Part shown: positions 28,386 to 36,479 of the stretch, in pieces | How positions within the stretch are numbered: position 1 is the first letter of the stretch | Layout: every line of letters starts with the position of its first letter | NCBI RefSeq assembly: GCF_009914755.1 | Contig: NC_060929.1 | Source: the human T2T-CHM13v2.0 reference genome, Homo sapiens | Strand: one strand, 5' to 3' | DNA length: 64,000 nt | Made by a program: the position numbers and the translations under genes | The notes under the pieces: model-generated | What the model saw: the letters and a program-made list of their open reading frames with translations, nothing else | Databases searched by the model: none | Told to the model about the DNA's origin: nothing

Positions 28386-30080
28386 TGTAATGTATGTGGT
28401 ACTGTTTTTTAAAGATTATATTCTAGTGCGAGAGACAGAAATAAAGTAAATGAACAAATTATTATGAATCAGTTAATACAGTGAAGAAAATGAACATAGT
28501 ATTGGATTAGAGATTAGGGAAACTCTATATAGGATTATGGGGTGATCAGGGAAGGTATCTGGGATGAGAGCTAAAGCTGAGACTTAAATAACGATAGAGC
28601 TAAAAATTAGTGGCCAGGGATTAAGAAAAGTGGTATAAGCAGAAAATGGCATTTGTAATATCTGAGGTTCAAAAGACATTCCAGTATAGGAAGATAAATG
28701 CTTTTGAAGAATGAGTTCTTACTAATATTTATTGGGAGCAGGAATAATGCTTCTGGAGTTTGATTTCATTGTTTTGAGGAGCAACAGCTCATTTGTAGTA
28801 ACAGGACACACTGTGAAAAGTGCTAGATACCTGGATTACATGCCCTTTCTCTGTCTCTCTGTGTTCCTCTAGTAACTTGAGTTTATCTCATTGTACTTAC
28901 ATATAGGGGTATAGTTTGGTGTCTGTCGTGCTACGTTATTCTGTGAAGGGAGATTCTGTCCCGTTTGCATTTTTGCTATTCCCACTCTTCACTCATATAG
29001 TACCTTTGTATGGGACTTAGAAAAAGGCCTTCTCATTTATTCCTTCACCCTTGGCTAGTGCTGATAAACCCCTGCATGTCCTACAATGTCTGCTAGTTAG
29101 TAGGTGCTCAATAAGTGTTTAATGATTCATGGCTGTTATAGCTGCTGAGTCAGTTAATGCACATATACTTAAAGAAGTAGGTGTACCTTATGATAATCAT
29201 TTCTGTATTTCTGTTGATTAACCTAGAGTACTATAGTTATGGAAGTATTTGTACCTAGTTTCTGATTTGATTTTTCTTAGTTTCAACCTCCAAATTTGTA
29301 TAACCCCAAGTATATTAGAGAGAATTGTTTTGAAGCAGGAATGACTCATGATAATGTAAATCCTCTCTTTAGTAAGGGTTCATAATATGGCTGAGGTATA
29401 GCTGCACTTTAATTTTGAAACCTGTTTTTCCTCTGACTCTTCAAGAAATATGTTTATTTTAAAAAATATAGAATTAGATGAAGCAGAAAGTGAAAAGTAC
29501 ACCTAACCCCACCACCAGAGCTAATATCACAAACCCTTTCTTTCATTAAACAAATATTTATTGAGCATATGTATCACTAGGCTTACAGTGATGAGTGAAA
29601 ACAGATACAGCTCTTCTCGTGGAATTTACATTCTTGTGGGGACAGATTTGAAAGGTAAATGTAAAAACATAGGTGTGGTAAGTGCTACAAAGTAGGAGTA
29701 TGTGATGCGGTAAGCATATAAGAGGGGGACTTCTAGCCAGGACGGTTTGGGAAGACTTCCCCGAAGAAGGGATGCTTGAGCTGAAAGAGAGGTGAGGTGT
29801 GTGTGTGTTTTGTAATGTGATAGATTCATTTGTAATTCATGATATACCGTAATTTTATAAGGTTTTCATTTATGGCTGAGGTACCACTGCATCTCTTTTG
29901 GTACACTAATGACGTTCTGTGTTCAGTCAGTGGTTGCAGTTTTTCAGAAGAATCAGGGAACCTCACGTACACAGGAATTTCTAAATATTATGATTACCTT
30001 GGTTTTCTTTCTAGCTTTGAGGTCATTTCTCTAAGAAATGACAAAATACATCAATAAAAGGGTATTATCAAGTCAAGTCT

Positions 30081-30136
30081 TCATAAACCAAAGGTATACT
30101 ATGAAAGGCCAAGATAATAGCAGATAATGGGTTCAT
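30081..30136 (+). repeat. Copy 1 of a 56-bp near-perfect direct repeat (copy 2 at 31469-31524; 55/56 identical)
   Basis: tcataaaccaaaggtatactatgaaaggccaagataatagcagataatgggttcat compared with tcataaaccagaggtatactatgaaaggccaagataatagcagataatgggttcat. Confidence 0.95.
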
Positions 30137-31468
30137 AGCTGTTAAGTCCCTCCAGTTTCTAGTGTAAGAAGGAGCATACCTTCCTGTCTGTTCAATTATT
30201 GGCTCTCTGTGCTTGGTGTACATTTTTTTAAACTCAATTTTAATGCCCTATTTCTGTTGGCTATCATATGGAAATAAATATAGGATAAAACTAAGTGATA
30301 GGCTAAATGGCATATGAAACTCTTTATAGCCCCTGTTCTTTTTTCCATTACTCTCTAAGATCTTACAGAGATTATGGTTAGTGTCTTTTAAGCCTGAGTT
30401 CCTAGCATGGAGTATTCCTGACATACACTAGTGGGCACCCGGTAAATTTTGAATAAATCAAATGTCTCCTCTGTCTAATATCACAATTCATCTCTCCAAT
30501 TCATATGATCCTCAATATCTACATATTTATTCCTTTTCTCCTTGAGCTTTAATTTTATATCTTCCTGGATGCATGCCAGTATTTGTTTCCTTATGTCCCT
30601 CCACTGTCACCTTCTTGCCTTGTTTTGGCCATAACTAGAGTTACCCTTTGGTAAGTGATGTTTTCATTATTCAGGGTTTAAACCTTAACTTTTCTAGTTA
30701 GGCTTCTGTTTATTTGTGACATCCCTCGTATCTCTTTTTTTTTTTTTTATTTAATCACGGTGTGTGTGTGTTCCTCTCAGTTAGGTTACTACCATGGTTT
30801 TCATCTACGCTTTGTCCCCCTAGTTAGTCTCTTACTTGGTCCTTTGTTGTTGGAATTTTTGTCTTCTTGAAATACCTCTTCGAACATGTCTTTCGGCTTA
30901 GATAGAACTCTACACGGCACATAGAACTACTTCTAGCAGTCTGACTCCTTAGCCTTGTATTCACAGTCTTTCCCTGTTTGACCTTCATTCTGTGGTTGTG
31001 CCTTTCCCTTTTGCTTCACAGTCAGACTAGCTGATTGTCACCTCCTAGCCTCCCTTCCTCATTTGGCTGAGTGATTTGGTTTTCCTCGTCCTTGTACTTT
31101 CTTGCCAAGTGGACTGTGAATGATAGATTGTTATATTTCTATCTCGTATTCAGTATTTTGGTAGTCACTCTCAAAATTTGTGCTTATATGACAAGCAGTT
31201 ATTCTTGCCTCATCCTTAAGCTCCTATTCACTTAGGTGCAGTGTGTTTGAGTTTGCAGGGGAGGGGTAGAATCTGTCCAAACCAGCTGTTTTTTTTGCAC
31301 AGTTGCTAAACCCCCTCAACCAACTTCTTGTCTGTTACTGGCCATTTGCAACACAGTTAATTCCTTCTTAATCAGTCATATTCACCAGTATATAATCTTT
31401 TCACTTTTTTCTTCTTCCACTTTCCAGTTATACTGTTCTTTCTGTTCCATGTATGTACTCTAAATACC

Positions 31469-31524
31469 TCATAAACCAGAGGTATACTATGAAAGGCCAA
31501 GATAATAGCAGATAATGGGTTCAT
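31469..31524 (+). repeat. Copy 2 of the 56-bp direct repeat
   Basis: See copy 1. The flanking sequences outside the 56 bp are unrelated. Confidence 0.95.
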
Positions 31525-33149
31525 TATCTGAGTCTGAAAGTGTTTGATCACTCAGATTTAATTCCATTCATTCATACGGCAGTTTTGATGAAAATTGACT
31601 GTCTCACCTAACACGAATTGTCCCGTGGGTTTCCTAATGAGATTTTAGATTTAGATTTTGGGGGATTCTCTGGTTTTCAAGCTAGAAGTAGAAATTCCCT
31701 GAAAGGTTTCATGGACACTGTTCAGTGTAGTTTGTGTTTTTCTTTTATGATGCTCATGGTTAGCCTGTTCTGAATTACTGTAACAAGACTTGGCTTTTAA
31801 AGAAAAGGCTGTTTGACACTTAGCCTTCTGAAAGTTTGGTTTAATACGGCCCTAGTAAGAGCAAAAAAGAGAAGGCAGAATTTGTCTTCTATCCCTGATT
31901 ATGTTATTGAAATAAGATTAACATTTATAAACAACTGTTTTACAATAGGTTTCTATGGAGGTTTATTGCAAAAGAAAATAGCTTGACGATTTAAGTTCCT
32001 TGAAGCCTATTGACTTTTTGGTTTTCTTAGGAACTAAATATATTACCTCTTAATATGTTTAGATATATATAAATATATCTTATTATATTGGTATATATTA
32101 ATATATATTATTCCCACTGGTGTACTTTAGGATAGGTATGTTAGGTGGCTCAGGATGAGGATTACAGAGGTGCAAATAGAATCTGCTCAGAAGCCAGATT
32201 GTCTAGGGCATTATTTCACCTATGTGGACTGTCAAATGCATCTTCCCTTGACTTACTAGAGAACTCAGAAGTAAGCAAGCCCTGGAGCACCTGAAAGTAC
32301 CAAGGATACAAATCATGTATTCCATGCTAATTGGGTTCTTTTTGAGACAGAAGGAAAGTTCATTTTCATTAGGTAGTTTATCAAGTTTCTCCAAAAGCAA
32401 CACTGAGGAATATAGGAGAAGCTATGAGAAATGCAGAAAGAGAAAAGAAAAAAAAAAGAGTTAAAAGAATGAGAACAAAGGAGGGGTTAGAATGACAGAT
32501 ACTGGGGGCAAGTGATGGGGAGCATCAGAAAGGACTTTGAGAGAGGACAAAAGAAAAAGCTGCCGTATTTCTTCTAAGATGTAATTTTTTTTTTCACCTC
32601 ATAACATAACATTAACTGTCTTACAGTTAATAGCATCTGAGTATTGCTTTTGGCCAGGTGGCAGTTTTGATCTAGTTGTCATTGTACAGGCATGGCTCTG
32701 ACTTGCTGTTTCTGTTGCTGTCATTTCAGTCTCAGTGTGGACATTGTTTTAACTTCTCGTGTTGAGTAATTGCCATTTAAAATATTTTCTTAGTTGTTGT
32801 TTTCACATCTTCATTTAGATCCTCTAGGGACACCAAACAGGCACCAGTATCAAAATTTGCAGGATGGTTGTCAGTGGCTTGAAAGACAGTCCTGGAGCAG
32901 TGTCGGAACATTCTTCATACTTACATTCTTGATGGCAGAAGGATGATACTGTGAATAAAAATTTTAAGTTATAAGAAAGCATTATGCCATTTACTTTGCA
33001 GCTTTTTCTTCCTTCAGGGTTCATAAAATAATGCGGACTCTTAAAGTACATGACTGTATGCTTATTGAAATAAAGGATCCCAACCATTTATTTAAAATCC
33101 TCAGCCTGATAGCAACAATGTTCATGATTATTACAACAATAATAACTAC

Positions 33150-33340
33150 AGTTGCCCTTTATTGAGTATGCACTGTGTACTAAGTGTTTCTCACTTAATT
33201 CTCAGAACCTTTTAGGGCCATAGTATTCACGATACAAAATAGGAAAAAATGGAGATTTTGGGTGTAAGTGTTAGATCCAGAATTTGAACCCAAGTTTATT
33301 AGGCTTCAAATCCGGTGCTGTAGTTCCTCATCCTGTTATA
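33150..33340 (-). mobile_element. MIR SINE fragment (minus orientation)
   Basis: ggtgtaagtgttagatccagaatttgaacccaagtttattaggcttcaaatccggtgctgtagttcctcatcctgtt; the upstream part carries a MIR-like head in reverse. Confidence 0.45.
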
Positions 33341-34989
33341 TAAAGTATTACTTTGTGAAAGACATAGAAGCTTTTATGCTTAAGATAAAATTGTCTCCCT
33401 TCATCCTTCTCCCCAAAGGGTCATATCCTGACTTCTTTTAGCGACCTTTATATCTTTAGGGCAACTCCATTCTCCACTGTGTATCGTAGATAGTTATGGG
33501 CACATTTCAGTTGTTCTATTAATTTGTGACTATTTAGAGTTAGTCTGGATCTGATTTATATTTCAACTCTTTATTATCTAGCTTAGTGCCTTGCCTTTTA
33601 TAGGCACTCAGTAAATATGTGTTGTATAAATAAGGCTATAAGTGTGAGCTTAAGTTTAGCACTGGTTATTATGTATATTTGTGTCTCAGTAGACTCTGAA
33701 AGCATTTAGAAAAGGAGTATAGAGGACCAAAATTTAGCTGTCCAGTAATCTGTAATGTGTAAAGACTGTTGCAGTTGCTAAGTACAGTCTTTTGGGATTT
33801 TCTCTATTACTGGAATAAGTGTAGAGGTGATGTAGAAGAGTATTATGGGGTGTTAGATACACAGCTGATTTAAATTGAAGATAGGTGTTCTCAGTGTTTC
33901 TAAATTCGTTTTATTTAGTGAAAGGCAAAGGGGGCATGAAAAATTGAATCAACTTTTCAGGAAAGAGACTCAAAATGTTCAGAGGTATTGCAGGTTCACT
34001 TGTGGCTCATGCAAATCAGAACGTATTTTATTTTTTGTATACATAATGAGAAATTTTTTCATAACCGAGTACTTATGTGAGGATACTAAAGTAAATCTAT
34101 TGCTGTAACCCAAGCTCTCTGATCATTTTATTTCAAATTTTGGACCAAGGTGTTATTTTGAATATAGTATAGTCTGCAGAAAAGACTAGGACAAAATGCA
34201 TCCATTATATGGGTACCATAAAGAAGTTTTAATCTCAGTTTAACAATTTTACTTTTACTATAGGTGGTTTAGTTCCTTTAGAAACCTAGCTGTTAAATAT
34301 TAAGAGAATAGATGAGTAAAATATGATTGCACCATTAAAGGCATTTAAAAAAATCTATATATTCGGGTGAGGGAAGAGCAAATGCTTGTGGTGTTAAATA
34401 GAAAATGCAGAATACCAAGTAATATCATGTTATATCCTGTTACGGGCAGTTGTGGGCAAGACTATATATATGCAGAGGAAACAAATATAAGCATACCATA
34501 TGTTAATGGTATGATTATAGGTGAGTATACTTAGGAAAAATATTTTTTAAGGAAAAATATTTTTTAAAAAGTGGTACATTGTCTCATCATTTCTGAGATC
34601 ATTGTGTTCCAGTAATAAGTGTGCTAAAAATGTCCTAATGATAATTAGAAAAGCTTTGGAGTAAGATCACCACAAAAAAAATATATTTTTATGCAGTGGT
34701 AGTAAGCATAAAGCTAAACCTTTCATTCCTGCTGATTGACCTAGCACAAATGTGAGAAGGTTGGGTTAAAGTTGATAGGTTGATGACATACGTTAAGTGG
34801 TATAAAAATAAGTTTGAAAATGAGCAAATTAAGCTGGATTATTCTTGATCTCTTAAACTATACAATCTTATGATAATATTTAACAATTTGAATGTTTTGG
34901 AGAAGTCAGGAATATGAAGAACAATTACAGACCTGTAAGGGAAGAAAATTCCTTGGCAGGAGGGTTTCTTTCTAGGAGGCAGTCTGTAC

Positions 34990-35245
34990 AGTGGTTTGGA
35001 ATATGGATTCTGCAGCTGGACTGCCAGGGTTCAATTCTCAGCTCTGTTTCTTGCTTTCTGTATAATTAAGCAAGTTACATTTAATTTCCCTTTGCCTGTT
35101 TTCTCATCTGTAAAATGAGAATAATGGAATTTGCTTTATAAGGCTGTTTTGAAATTTAATGATTTTTGGTTTCTAAATGTAAAGTCCTTAACAGTACTTG
35201 GCATAGTGAGTGCTCAATAAATGTTAGTGGTTTATTATTATTACC
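34990..35245 (+). mobile_element. MIR SINE (nearly complete)
   Basis: gctggactgccagggttcaattctcagctctgtttcttgctttctgtataattaagcaagttacatttaatttccctttgcctgttttctcatctgtaaaatgagaataatggaatttgctttataaggctgttttgaaatttaatg...acagtacttggcatagtgagtgctcaataaatgttagtggtttattattatt. Confidence 0.8.
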
Positions 35246-35689
35246 ATTATCAAAGGAGTATTATGATTCCTTTGCTTAAGCAATTGATTTTTTTTTTAGA
35301 AAGGAAGCTGTTGAAGTTATTGAAGTACCTGTTGCTATATTCTAAGAAATTAAAATGTCCAGAAATCTGCCTCTGTAAGTAACCTTTTAAGATCATTCAT
35401 GCCACTCTGTTTCTTTAGTCAGTAATAATGCAGCCCATGTTCTATGCCTTCTATAGAGAATTTCATTTAAAATGAAACCACTGAAAAATGTAGACCACCA
35501 TTTTATACTAAATGGTGAGTAAAAGGTCTGATTTTATCTTGAAGAATGAAACTAAAATTCTGGGAAAACATTAGCTTATAGTAACTGTAAACATGCATGA
35601 ATTGTTATAATGAACAAATAATGGATCAAGTGTGAATGGATAAACAATTTTTCCCACAAAATAATTCAGTATCATTATATGACAGCCTT

Positions 35690-36170
35690 CAATTTGACAT
35701 TTGTGGCATTAGCTTTAAGTTGTTCTTTTTTTTGCAAAAATATTGATAAAAATATATATACATTTTTTCAAGGACCTCTGTTAAATTCTTTGATAGTCAA
35801 GTTACTCTTACCCTCCTCCCGAACAAAGAATGTCTTGCTTACTGATTACTGTAAAAGTGGTAGATTCCCTGAGCTCAGTATTCCTCATCCATGCATCAAG
35901 ACTACAAAAAAGCACAAACTCATACAAATAAAACATGGAGAATCTTATAATACTGAAGGAAAGATTACGTGTTATTCCTTCTATACAACATTCACAAAAA
36001 GGCAAAACTATAAAATACATCACATTATCCCCATGGGTCTTGGGGACAAACAAAACCTCAAATAATGTCAATGCTTATGCTGCTTGCTGTGCCCAGAGTA
36101 GCAGAGTCTCTAACCCAGGAGTCTTATGTCCTTTGGCACCATCCAGAAGACAGTAACAGACTAACTTGTA
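35690..36170 (+). mobile_element. L1 3'-UTR-derived fragment (sense on + strand); forms an inverted pair with the L1 fragment at 36480-37200
   Basis: The + strand ORF fragment ILKERLRVIPSIQHSQKGKTI mirrors the - strand ORF fragment ILRERLHIIPSTQHSKTGKTN 400 bp downstream. The pattern resembles old L1 (L1M/L1P) 3' UTR. Classification is tentative. Confidence 0.4.
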
Positions 36171-36479
36171 AGTGGGGTAAAATCAAATCCTAGATCCTAC
36201 ATTGTTTGCCATCATTTTTATAAACTTTGGAAATCTTGGAATTTTTGCAAAATCTGTAGTCTCACTCATGGTTCATAAGCCATTATGGTGAGGGAGACAC
36301 TTGTGAATAGGGACTGATTTTATAAGTGATCAGTCACAAGTATGTTTTAAAGATATTTTTAAAAATTGAAATAATCATCTAGTAAAGCACACAGAATTAA
36401 AGTGTGTAGCTTAATGAACTTCTGCATATGGTATACATCCATGTCATCATCACCCAGATCAAAATATGGAAAATTTCTA

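What the first reader, a model, noticed from the sequence alone, without database searches (positions are those of the whole stretch)
30081..31524. A 56-bp near-perfect direct repeat (55/56) flanking a 1.33-kb segment in intron 1
tcataaacca(a/g)aggtatactatgaaaggccaagataatagcagataatgggttcat occurs at 30081-30136 and again at 31469-31524 in the same orientation, with unrelated flanks outside. 98 percent identity over 56 bp implies a recent event. It is far longer than an L1/Alu target-site duplication (7-20 bp) or an LTR target-site duplication (4-6 bp). Options are an insertion by another mechanism with a long TSD, a microhomology-mediated duplication remnant, or gene conversion. The intervening 1.33 kb has no obvious Alu/L1/LTR hallmarks. 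The repeats predispose to a ~1.39-kb deletion/duplication polymorphism by unequal exchange.
Basis: seen in the sequence. Interest (0 to 1): 0.55.

Follow-up and report, generated by a model that had tools for sequence, protein, structure and literature searches.

The report
Small copied DNA patch in SMAD5 intron
A 56-base stretch in the first long intron of the primate SMAD5 gene was copied and pasted 1.4 kb downstream of itself by an error-prone DNA copying or repair slip, which is an ordinary, probably harmless kind of mutation and not the insertion of the 1.33 kb in between.

Summary
The 56-mer pair is real: R1 30081-30136 and R2 31469-31524, 55/56 identical, no chance matches expected. The 1.33-kb spacer is not an insert. 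Spacer and R1 sit collinearly at the orthologous place in sheep and pocket gopher. R2 alone is missing in sheep, vampire bat and gopher, so the empty site is for the 56-mer, not the spacer.

R1 and R2 share four primate-derived substitutions, and their single difference is a later G>A change in R1. R2 is therefore a primate-lineage copy of R1, roughly 9 Myr old by the one mismatch (0.2-50 Myr).

The inserted block is 59 nt (CC + R2 + T) replacing one ancestral G. Perfect 7- and 9-bp inverted repeats straddle the two junctions, and an 8-bp hairpin starts exactly at the breakpoint. Each is about 0.1-0.5% likely by chance. The site can be rebuilt base for base by four microhomology-primed template switches (3, 2, 3 and 5 nt).

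This fits known template-switch or Pol-theta-type synthesis, but with an unusually long tract and distant donor. It is an ordinary intronic mutation of low interest. No primate orthologue could be reached, so dating and polymorphism remain open.

The parts
30081..30136 (+). R1, the ancestral donor copy of the 56-mer
   Evidence: Present at the orthologous, collinear position in sheep (44/56 identical). Its first half is also present in gopher. No inverted repeat with a loop of 3-10 nt straddles its boundaries. With a 26-nt gap, one 7-nt pair (CTATGAA/TTCATAG) spans its right boundary.
30137..31468 (+). Spacer X (1332 bp): ancestral intron sequence, not an insert. It includes a (T)15/(GT)n microsatellite at about 30735-30775.
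   Evidence: Aligns collinearly with sheep L003 at about 34266-36253 and with gopher L009 at about 1836-2858. Its 3' end also aligns with bat L007 82-163. No other copy in the window, no Alu, and no poly-A or poly-T at its ends.
31467..31525 (+). The actual derived block: filler CC + R2 + filler T (59 nt). It replaces a single ancestral G.
   Evidence: Outgroups read ...CCTAAATAG|ATCTGAGT (gopher)...CCTAGATAG|ATCTAAAT (bat) and ...CCTAAATAG|AAAT (sheep). The window reads ...CTAAATA-CC-[R2]-T-ATCTGAGT.
31469..31524 (+). R2, the derived copy of R1
   Evidence: Absent in sheep, bat and gopher. Shares primate-derived states with R1 at positions 2, 3, 17 and 23, and keeps the ancestral G at position 11.
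31464..31485 (.). Perfect 7-bp inverted repeat ATACCTC / GAGGTAT (8-nt loop) straddling the left junction. The filler CC pairs with GG inside R2.
   Evidence: Found. A stem of this kind occurs at 0.45% of random positions in the window.
31509..31530 (.). Perfect 9-bp inverted repeat CAGATAATG / CATTATCTG (4-nt loop) straddling the right junction. The filler T pairs with an A inside R2, and the ancestral flank ATCTG pairs with CAGAT.
   Evidence: Found. A stem of this kind occurs at 0.10% of random positions.
31526..31557 (.). Acceptor-site hairpin: 8-bp inverted repeat ATCTGAGT (31526-31533) / ACTCAGAT (31550-31557). Its first arm begins exactly at the right breakpoint.
   Evidence: A perfect stem of at least 8 bp starts at only 0.096% of positions. 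As naked single-stranded DNA the region folds only modestly better than shuffles (-5.8 kcal/mol, z = -1.46).

Best explanation
R2 is a lineage-specific templated copy of R1. It was written into otherwise ancestral SMAD5 intron sequence 1.39 kb downstream of its donor, on the primate branch.

Shown:
- The spacer and R1 are ancestral.
- R2 is absent from three outgroup lineages.
- R2 carries the primate-derived states of R1.
- The derived block is CC + R2 + T in place of one G.

Inferred: a 3' DNA end at the acceptor site made a short series of microhomology-primed template switches. That end was either a nascent strand that came off its template next to the ATCTGAGT/ACTCAGAT hairpin, or a resected break end. 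Written for the top strand (the mirror path on the bottom strand is equivalent), the steps are:
1. ...ATA anneals to TAT inside R in inverted orientation and copies CC(TC).
2. The new TC end realigns on the start of R1 and copies R in direct orientation.
3. The ...CAT end snaps back on ATG and copies T(ATCTG).
4. ATCTG re-anneals to the original site and synthesis continues.

The product is a neutral 58-bp net insertion with no evident function. Whether the enzyme context was replicative (FoSTeS/MMBIR-like) or break repair (Pol theta / SD-MMEJ-like) cannot be told from sequence.
For: - Collinear orthology of the left flank, R1, spacer and right flank in sheep and gopher, with R2 missing. Bat also lacks R2.
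- Gopher is from Glires and sheep and bat are from Laurasiatheria, so parsimony places the gain on the primate side.
- R1 and R2 share four states that differ from sheep = gopher. The single R1/R2 difference is derived in R1.
- With one difference over 2 x 56 bp, the maximum-likelihood age is about 9 Myr at 1e-9 per site per year (95% interval 0.2-50 Myr).
- Perfect inverted repeats straddle both R2 junctions, and the filler bases extend both stems.
- Such stems occur at 0.45% (7 bp or more) and 0.10% (9 bp or more) of random window positions. Both occur 56 bp apart at only 2 of 63,500 positions. The native R1 junctions have none with a 3-10 nt loop.
- A perfect stem of at least 8 bp begins exactly at the right breakpoint, against a background of 0.096% per position.
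- The four-switch path rebuilds window 31454-31545 exactly, using microhomologies of 3, 2, 3 and 5 nt.
- Snap-back and loop-out priming from 1-4-nt primer repeats, reiterated priming, extension and dissociation, and inserts that become part of longer inverted or direct repeats are the published hallmarks of SD-MMEJ and Pol theta repair (PMC5728401; PMC5068794).
Against: - No primate orthologue was obtained. The pre-insertion sequence is therefore inferred from distant outgroups, and CC and T could be later or earlier point changes rather than synthesis products.
- Only 3 filler bases are uniquely explained by the inverted steps.
- I noticed the junction stems after the fact, so the nominal probabilities overstate significance.
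- The donor distance (1.39 kb) and tract length (56 nt) are well outside the usual Pol theta range. In PMC5068794 most inserts are under 25 bp and about 85% are primed within 10 bp of the break.
- The hairpin region is not unusually stable as naked ssDNA (z = -1.46).
- Genome-wide uniqueness of the 56-mer was not testable, so a third copy acting as donor cannot be strictly excluded.
Confidence: 0.7

Rival explanations
1. A copy of R1 was captured at a double-strand break and sealed by classical end joining. The CC and T fillers are random additions or unrelated point substitutions, and the junction-spanning inverted repeats are coincidence.
For: There is no direct microhomology at either junction when R is delimited by maximal identity. 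Only three filler bases carry the templating signal. The stems were noticed post hoc.
Against: The joint occurrence of junction-spanning stems is about 2-3 in 100,000 in this window's own background, and the breakpoint also abuts an 8-bp hairpin. All three fillers extend the stems (1/64 by chance). Capture of a free 56-bp fragment while the donor stays intact needs an extra copying step anyway.
Confidence: 0.17
2. One reading: the 1.33-kb spacer plus one repeat copy is an insertion (by a transposon, retrocopy or other mechanism) that generated a 56-bp target-site duplication.
For: The R-X-R geometry has unrelated outer flanks.
Against: The spacer is present and collinear at the orthologous site in sheep and gopher, and its 3' end is present in bat. 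The outgroups lack only R2. There is no poly-A or poly-T at the spacer ends and no Alu. The spacer has no second copy in the window.
Confidence: 0.01
3. The duplication is ancient. R2 was lost independently in the outgroups, or R1 and R2 are two copies of an old interspersed repeat, and near-identity in primates is due to recent gene conversion.
For: Sheep and bat are both Laurasiatheria, so one deletion could explain those two. No RepeatMasker or Dfam screen was available.
Against: Gopher (Glires) also lacks R2, so at least two independent precise losses would be required. R2 shares four primate-derived states with R1. Homology ends abruptly with unrelated flanks, so an old, diverged 56-bp tract would be a very poor conversion substrate.
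Confidence: 0.02
4. A 1388-bp tandem duplication (R-X-R-X) was followed by a precise deletion of the second X. Alternatively, the second copy is an assembly or cloning artefact.
For: The R-X-R geometry equals 1.04 tandem units.
Against: This needs two events with a deletion endpoint exactly at the R/X boundary. It does not explain the lost ancestral G, the fillers or the junction stems. An artefact would not be expected to carry the ancestral G where R1 has since mutated.
Confidence: 0.03

Closest known systems
Synthesis-dependent MMEJ / polymerase-theta templated insertions (snap-back, loop-out, reiterated priming; PMC2943611, PMC5728401, PMC5068794, PMC4912351)
   Same: The insert is templated from the same chromosome. 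Short primer repeats (2-5 nt) occur at every inferred switch. Inverted (snap-back) synthesis of a few bases creates the microhomology used for the next step. The junction ends up inside new, longer inverted repeats. Several rounds of priming, extension and dissociation are involved.
   Different: The main tract is 56 nt and its template lies 1.39 kb away. Published inserts are mostly under 25 bp and primed within about 10-50 bp of the break. Enzyme dependence is unknown. This is a germline evolutionary fossil, not an experimental junction.
FoSTeS / MMBIR replicative template switching
   Same: Microhomology-primed switches to templates within kilobases. Direct and inverted segments are mixed in one event. 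A hairpin-forming inverted repeat sits at the point where the strand would have left its template.
   Different: The classical cases are kilobase-to-megabase copy-number changes, whereas here the net change is 58 bp. Replication dependence cannot be shown from sequence.
Short-range template switches of the four-point model (Loytynoja and Goldman 2017, PMC5453318; Walker et al. 2021, PMC7954356)
   Same: A local strand-switch-and-return event during copying that leaves hairpin-capable inverted repeats and looks like a complex indel in alignments.
   Different: Those events insert an inverted copy of adjacent sequence. Here only the 2-nt and 1-nt fillers are inverted, while the 56-nt body is a direct copy from 1.39 kb upstream.
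Target-site duplications of L1, Alu or LTR insertions
   Same: Two direct repeats bracket a segment.
   Different: The bracketed segment is ancestral rather than inserted. It has no poly-A and no element termini, and the repeat is far longer than usual.

Membership tests
Insertion with target-site duplication (retroelement, transposon or other) | Orthologous empty site in outgroups: one repeat copy and no spacer | tested here: not met
   Sheep and gopher have R1 plus the full spacer, collinear, and lack only R2.
Insertion with target-site duplication (retroelement, transposon or other) | Element hallmarks at the spacer ends (poly-A tail, LTRs or TIRs) | tested here: not met
   No poly-A before 31469 and no poly-T after 30136. 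No Alu hit in 30137-31468. No long terminal inverted or direct repeats of the spacer were reported.
Two copies of a known interspersed repeat family | Both copies old and present at orthologous sites, with further copies elsewhere | tested here: not met
   R2 is absent in three outgroups. There is no third copy in the 64-kb window. No match to the 24-nt core was found in the genome or viral collections, though these are not mammalian genomes.
Two copies of a known interspersed repeat family | Match to a curated repeat consensus (RepeatMasker / Dfam) | not testable with these tools
   No repeat library was available. A MIR consensus recalled from memory gave only a weak 19-nt hit inside the spacer.
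SD-MMEJ / Pol-theta templated insertion | Insert sequence identical to nearby sequence on the same molecule | tested here: met
   55/56 identity to R1. The one difference is a later change in R1.
SD-MMEJ / Pol-theta templated insertion | Short primer or microhomology repeats at each priming step, with snap-back filler that becomes part of a longer inverted repeat | tested here: met
   Exact rebuild with microhomologies of 3, 2, 3 and 5 nt. The 7-bp and 9-bp junction-spanning stems include the fillers and are rare in the background. Criteria are taken from PMC5728401.
SD-MMEJ / Pol-theta templated insertion | Template within tens of bp of the break and insert usually under 25-30 bp | tested here: not met
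   The donor is 1388 bp away and the tract is 56 nt. PMC5068794 reports inserts mostly under 25 bp, about 85% primed within 10 bp, and only about 3% mapping to distant sites.
SD-MMEJ / Pol-theta templated insertion | Dependence on POLQ | not testable with these tools
   This is an evolutionary fossil, so no genetics is possible.
FoSTeS / MMBIR | Microhomology at all breakpoints and multiple switches to nearby templates in mixed orientation | tested here: met
   Four switches (inverted, direct, inverted, return), all within 1.4 kb.
FoSTeS / MMBIR | Origin at a stalled or collapsed replication fork | tested here: inconclusive
   An 8-bp inverted repeat starts exactly at the breakpoint (background 0.096%). 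Its folding energy is not exceptional, however (z = -1.46), and the arm ACTCAGAT is only partly present in the outgroups.
Short-range inverted template switch (four-point model) | The inserted or replaced sequence is the reverse complement of adjacent sequence | tested here: not met
   The 56-nt body is a direct copy. Only CC and T fit an inverted template.
Ancient segmental paralogues homogenised by gene conversion | Both copies present in outgroups | tested here: not met
   R2 is absent from sheep, bat and gopher.

The most novel reading that the evidence does not exclude
R carries two AGATAA (GATA-factor-type) motifs 11 bp apart. Copying it would have added a second paired-GATA module to the 5' intron of SMAD5, a BMP-pathway gene active in blood formation, and so created a primate-specific regulatory change. 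A milder reading is that the locus is an unusually clean germline fossil. It would show that Pol-theta/SD-MMEJ-style iterative synthesis can reach a template 1.4 kb away and copy more than 50 nt.
Probability: 0.03. Interest if true: 0.4.

Novelty: new member of a known kind. Interest (0 to 1): 0.15.

Why it matters
It matters little for SMAD5 biology. The change lies deep in an intron, about 9.7 kb from the first coding exon. The donor sequence is not conserved above the intron background (44/56 identity with sheep, and half of it is deleted in gopher).

Its value is as a worked example. A repeat pair that looks like a giant target-site duplication turns out to be a short dispersed duplication, and its junctions preserve a base-by-base record of microhomology-primed template switching. 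Catalogues of such fossils help calibrate how far, and for how long, error-prone polymerases copy in the mammalian germline. The result also warns against reading an R-X-R geometry as an insertion of X without checking outgroups.

Tried and rejected
- **Rhinoceros SMAD5 loci (L001, L002).** The 10-kb upstream flank ends at the equivalent of window ~33.8 kb, about 2.3 kb short of R2.
- **Chinese hamster (L006).** It spans the intron, but alignment stops at window ~30020 and resumes at ~34700. R1, X and R2 are lost or unalignable, so it is uninformative.
- **Primate contigs via spurious ORFs.** I queried the protein collection with seven concatenated ORFs that span R1, R2 and the junctions. Nothing scored at E <= 0.01.
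- **Primate SMAD5 genomic loci via proteins.** It equals P0001 and is on record only on two rhinoceros contigs. The primate entries (P0002, P0020) are UniRef-only. Marmot X2 and elephant X2 are not on record. The window has no MYQ upstream start that might match a longer annotated product.
- **DNA pattern scans.** There were no hits in genome contigs with two patterns, or in viral contigs.
- **MIR consensus from memory against the spacer.** It gave only a weak 19-nt hit and was not used as evidence.
- **Rejected ideas.**
  - The terminal TCAT...TCAT of R as a 4-bp microhomology: the outgroup sites have no TCAT.
  - Direct microhomology between the donor and acceptor flanks: there is none.
  - The R1/R2 mismatch as a polymerase copying error: R2 carries the ancestral G.
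  - A 7-bp inverted repeat with a 26-nt gap at the R1 right boundary: with gaps that wide it is not rare enough to count as evidence.

Full report
**Observation.** They match at 55/56 positions and differ only at position 11 (A in R1, G in R2). Start-to-start spacing is 1388 bp and the spacer is 1332 bp. Allowing three mismatches, the window holds only these two copies, and 100 dinucleotide-preserving shuffles gave none. A BLAST of the region with 500-bp flanks against the whole window returns only this 56-bp match. The similarity therefore ends abruptly, and the spacer has no second copy nearby.

**Context.** Rfam finds all four conserved regions of the SMAD5-AS1 lncRNA at 16986-21716. A CpG island lies at about 20-21 kb, with 67% G+C. 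SMAD5 coding exons lie on the + strand from 41229 onward, and the window is full of Alu elements, so it is primate. The repeat pair lies in the long 5' intron, 9.7 kb upstream of the first coding exon. I could not verify that the species is human or that the intron is strictly number 1.

**Getting orthologues.** The DNA collections available are microbial, so I went through proteins. A SMAD5 search and the cluster listing gave ids whose encoding contigs could be fetched with introns.
- Rhinoceros loci stop 2.3 kb short of R2.
- A sheep gene model with an N-terminal extension spans the whole 5' intron in three assemblies, L003-L005.
- Vampire bat (L007) reaches just past the R2 site.
- Pocket gopher (L009) covers the whole region.
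- Hamster (L006) spans it but is unalignable between window ~30020 and ~34700.

**What the outgroups show.** In sheep the region is collinear with the window. The 10 bp 5' of R1, R1 itself and the start of the spacer form one block (30071-30275 aligned to L003 34201-34400). The spacer continues in order up to 31435, and the right flank resumes at 31535. R2 has no counterpart of its own and matches only the sheep orthologue of R1.

Base-level alignments show a clean gap at R2 in sheep, bat and gopher, with both flanks aligned. Gopher belongs to Glires, the sister group of the primate side, while sheep and bat are Laurasiatheria. Parsimony therefore places a gain on the primate branch rather than repeated precise losses. 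The spacer is ancestral intron, not an insert. This refutes the 'long TSD around a 1.33-kb insertion' reading. It also refutes 'two copies of an old repeat family' and 'old paralogues homogenised by conversion'.

**Direction and age.** R1 is 44/56 identical to its sheep orthologue and R2 is 45/56. At the positions where gopher is alignable, sheep and gopher agree against the window at positions 2, 3, 17 and 23, and R1 and R2 share the derived state at all four. At position 11, sheep, gopher and R2 have G and only R1 has A. So R2 was copied from R1 after most primate-branch substitutions had accumulated, and the one difference is a later change in R1, not a copying error. One change over 2 x 56 bp gives a maximum-likelihood age of about 9 Myr at 1e-9 per site per year. 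The interval is wide, at 0.2-50 Myr.

**Junction anatomy.** The outgroups read CCTAAGTAG|ATCTGAGT (gopher), CCTAGATAG|ATCTAAAT (bat) and CCTAAATAG|AAAT (sheep). The window reads CTAAATA-CC-[R2]-T-ATCTGAGT. The derived block is therefore 59 nt, at 31467-31525, and it replaces one G.

A scan for short inverted repeats found two perfect ones that straddle the junctions:
- ATACCTC (31464-31470) with GAGGTAT (31479-31485), across the left junction.
- CAGATAATG (31509-31517) with CATTATCTG (31522-31530), across the right junction.

In both cases the filler bases (CC on the left, T on the right) extend the stem between ancestral flank and R-internal sequence. A third pair, ATCTGAGT (31526-31533) with ACTCAGAT (31550-57), starts exactly at the right breakpoint.

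Against the window's own background:
- Junction-spanning stems of these kinds occur at 0.45% (7 bp or more) and 0.10% (9 bp or more) of positions.
- Both together, 56 bp apart, occur at 2 of 63,500 positions. One of these should be this locus, since it meets both thresholds, although I did not print the positions.
- The R1 boundaries have none with a 3-10 nt loop.
- A perfect stem of 8 bp or more starts at 0.096% of positions.

These numbers are post hoc and should be discounted. Three such coincidences at one site are still hard to attribute to chance.

**Mechanism (inferred).** A script rebuilt window 31454-31545 exactly from the retained flanks plus R by four switches:
1. The 3' end ...ATA pairs with TAT (R positions 15-17) in inverted orientation and copies CCTC.
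2. The TC end realigns on R positions 1-2 and copies R in direct orientation.
3. The CAT end pairs with ATG (R positions 47-49) and copies TATCTG.
4. ATCTG re-anneals to the acceptor flank.

The mirror path on the other strand is equivalent. It starts with the strongest microhomology (CAGAT, 5 nt), from a 3' end that has just completed the second arm of the acceptor hairpin. This would suit a nascent strand that folded back and left its template.

**Comparison with known mechanisms.** This is the logic of synthesis-dependent MMEJ and Pol theta repair. Short primer repeats, snap-back (inverted) or loop-out (direct) priming, limited synthesis that creates a new microhomology, and reiterated rounds are all described for those pathways, as are inserts that end up inside longer repeats (PMC5728401; PMC5068794).

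It departs from those descriptions in scale. Published inserts are mostly under 25 bp, with about 85% primed within 10 bp of the break and only about 3% from distant sites. Here 56 nt were copied from 1388 bp away, which is more in the range of replicative FoSTeS/MMBIR switching. Sequence alone cannot separate the two settings.

The naked-DNA folding energy of the hairpin region is unremarkable (z = -1.46), so the hairpin trigger is a suggestion only.

**Function.** None is evident. R1 is no more conserved than the surrounding intron, and half of it is deleted in gopher. Rfam reports nothing at the site. R does carry two AGATAA motifs, of which only the second is kept in sheep, so a regulatory effect of doubling them is not excluded but is unlikely. 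A 56-bp direct repeat is a weak substrate for unequal exchange, and whether a 1.39-kb deletion or duplication segregates could not be tested.

**What could not be done.** No primate orthologue could be reached:
- The ORF-based search of the protein collection found nothing.
- The single metagenome scan returned a chance 21-mer match.
- The genome and viral scans were empty.
- The canonical SMAD5 protein is on record only for rhinoceros.

Three things therefore remain open: the branch on which R2 arose, the exact pre-insertion sequence (and so whether CC and T arose together with R2), and any present-day polymorphism.

**Verdict.** The feature is a primate-lineage, locally templated 58-bp net insertion with an unusually legible template-switch footprint. 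It is a new instance of a known kind of mutation, of low general interest.

Noticed in passing
window 16986-17251 and 21166-21716: All four Rfam SMAD5-AS1 'conserved region' models match the + strand. That is the same strand as the SMAD5 coding exons, although the lncRNA is described as antisense to SMAD5. The Rfam seeds may have been taken in genome orientation rather than transcript orientation.
   Followed up: no
window 30111-30127 and 31499-31515 (inside R1 and R2): Each copy of the 56-mer holds two AGATAA (GATA-type) motifs 11 bp apart. Only the second is conserved in sheep, and both fall in a 28-bp deletion in gopher.
   Followed up: partly
L009 (gopher) about 1555-1800, just 5' of the R1 orthologue: Gopher has a lineage-specific insertion of about 240 bp that looks like a rodent SINE, immediately upstream of R1. 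It also has a 28-bp deletion inside the R1 orthologue.
   Followed up: no
L006 (hamster) 22275-24849 versus window 30020-34706: Hamster has about 2.6 kb where the window has 4.7 kb, and nothing there aligns to R1, the spacer or R2. The segment seems to be deleted or diverged beyond recognition in this muroid.
   Followed up: partly
window 29368-29406 and 29853-29891: A 39-nt direct repeat at 72% identity, 485 bp apart (family D2). Window 29260-29359 also has a second, non-collinear match in both the sheep and the hamster loci, at the same locus coordinates (21448-21540) and the same identity. This could be an old interspersed repeat just upstream of R1, but the identical coordinates in two loci also look like a possible mix-up.
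   Followed up: no
window 30735-30775 (inside the spacer): A (T)15 run followed by a short (GT)n microsatellite. A pyrimidine-rich tract at about 31395-31450 lies just 5' of the R2 insertion site.
   Followed up: no
window 31500-31506 / 31523-31529: The right-junction arm can also pair with the first AGATAAT of R2 (7 bp, 16 nt between the arms). The junction therefore has two alternative fold-back registers.
   Followed up: no
The collection names P0001 only for black rhinoceros, with a UniRef line saying n=1. The window's exons agree with it over residues 1-418. Whether human SMAD5 is truly identical over the last 47 residues was not checked.
   Followed up: no
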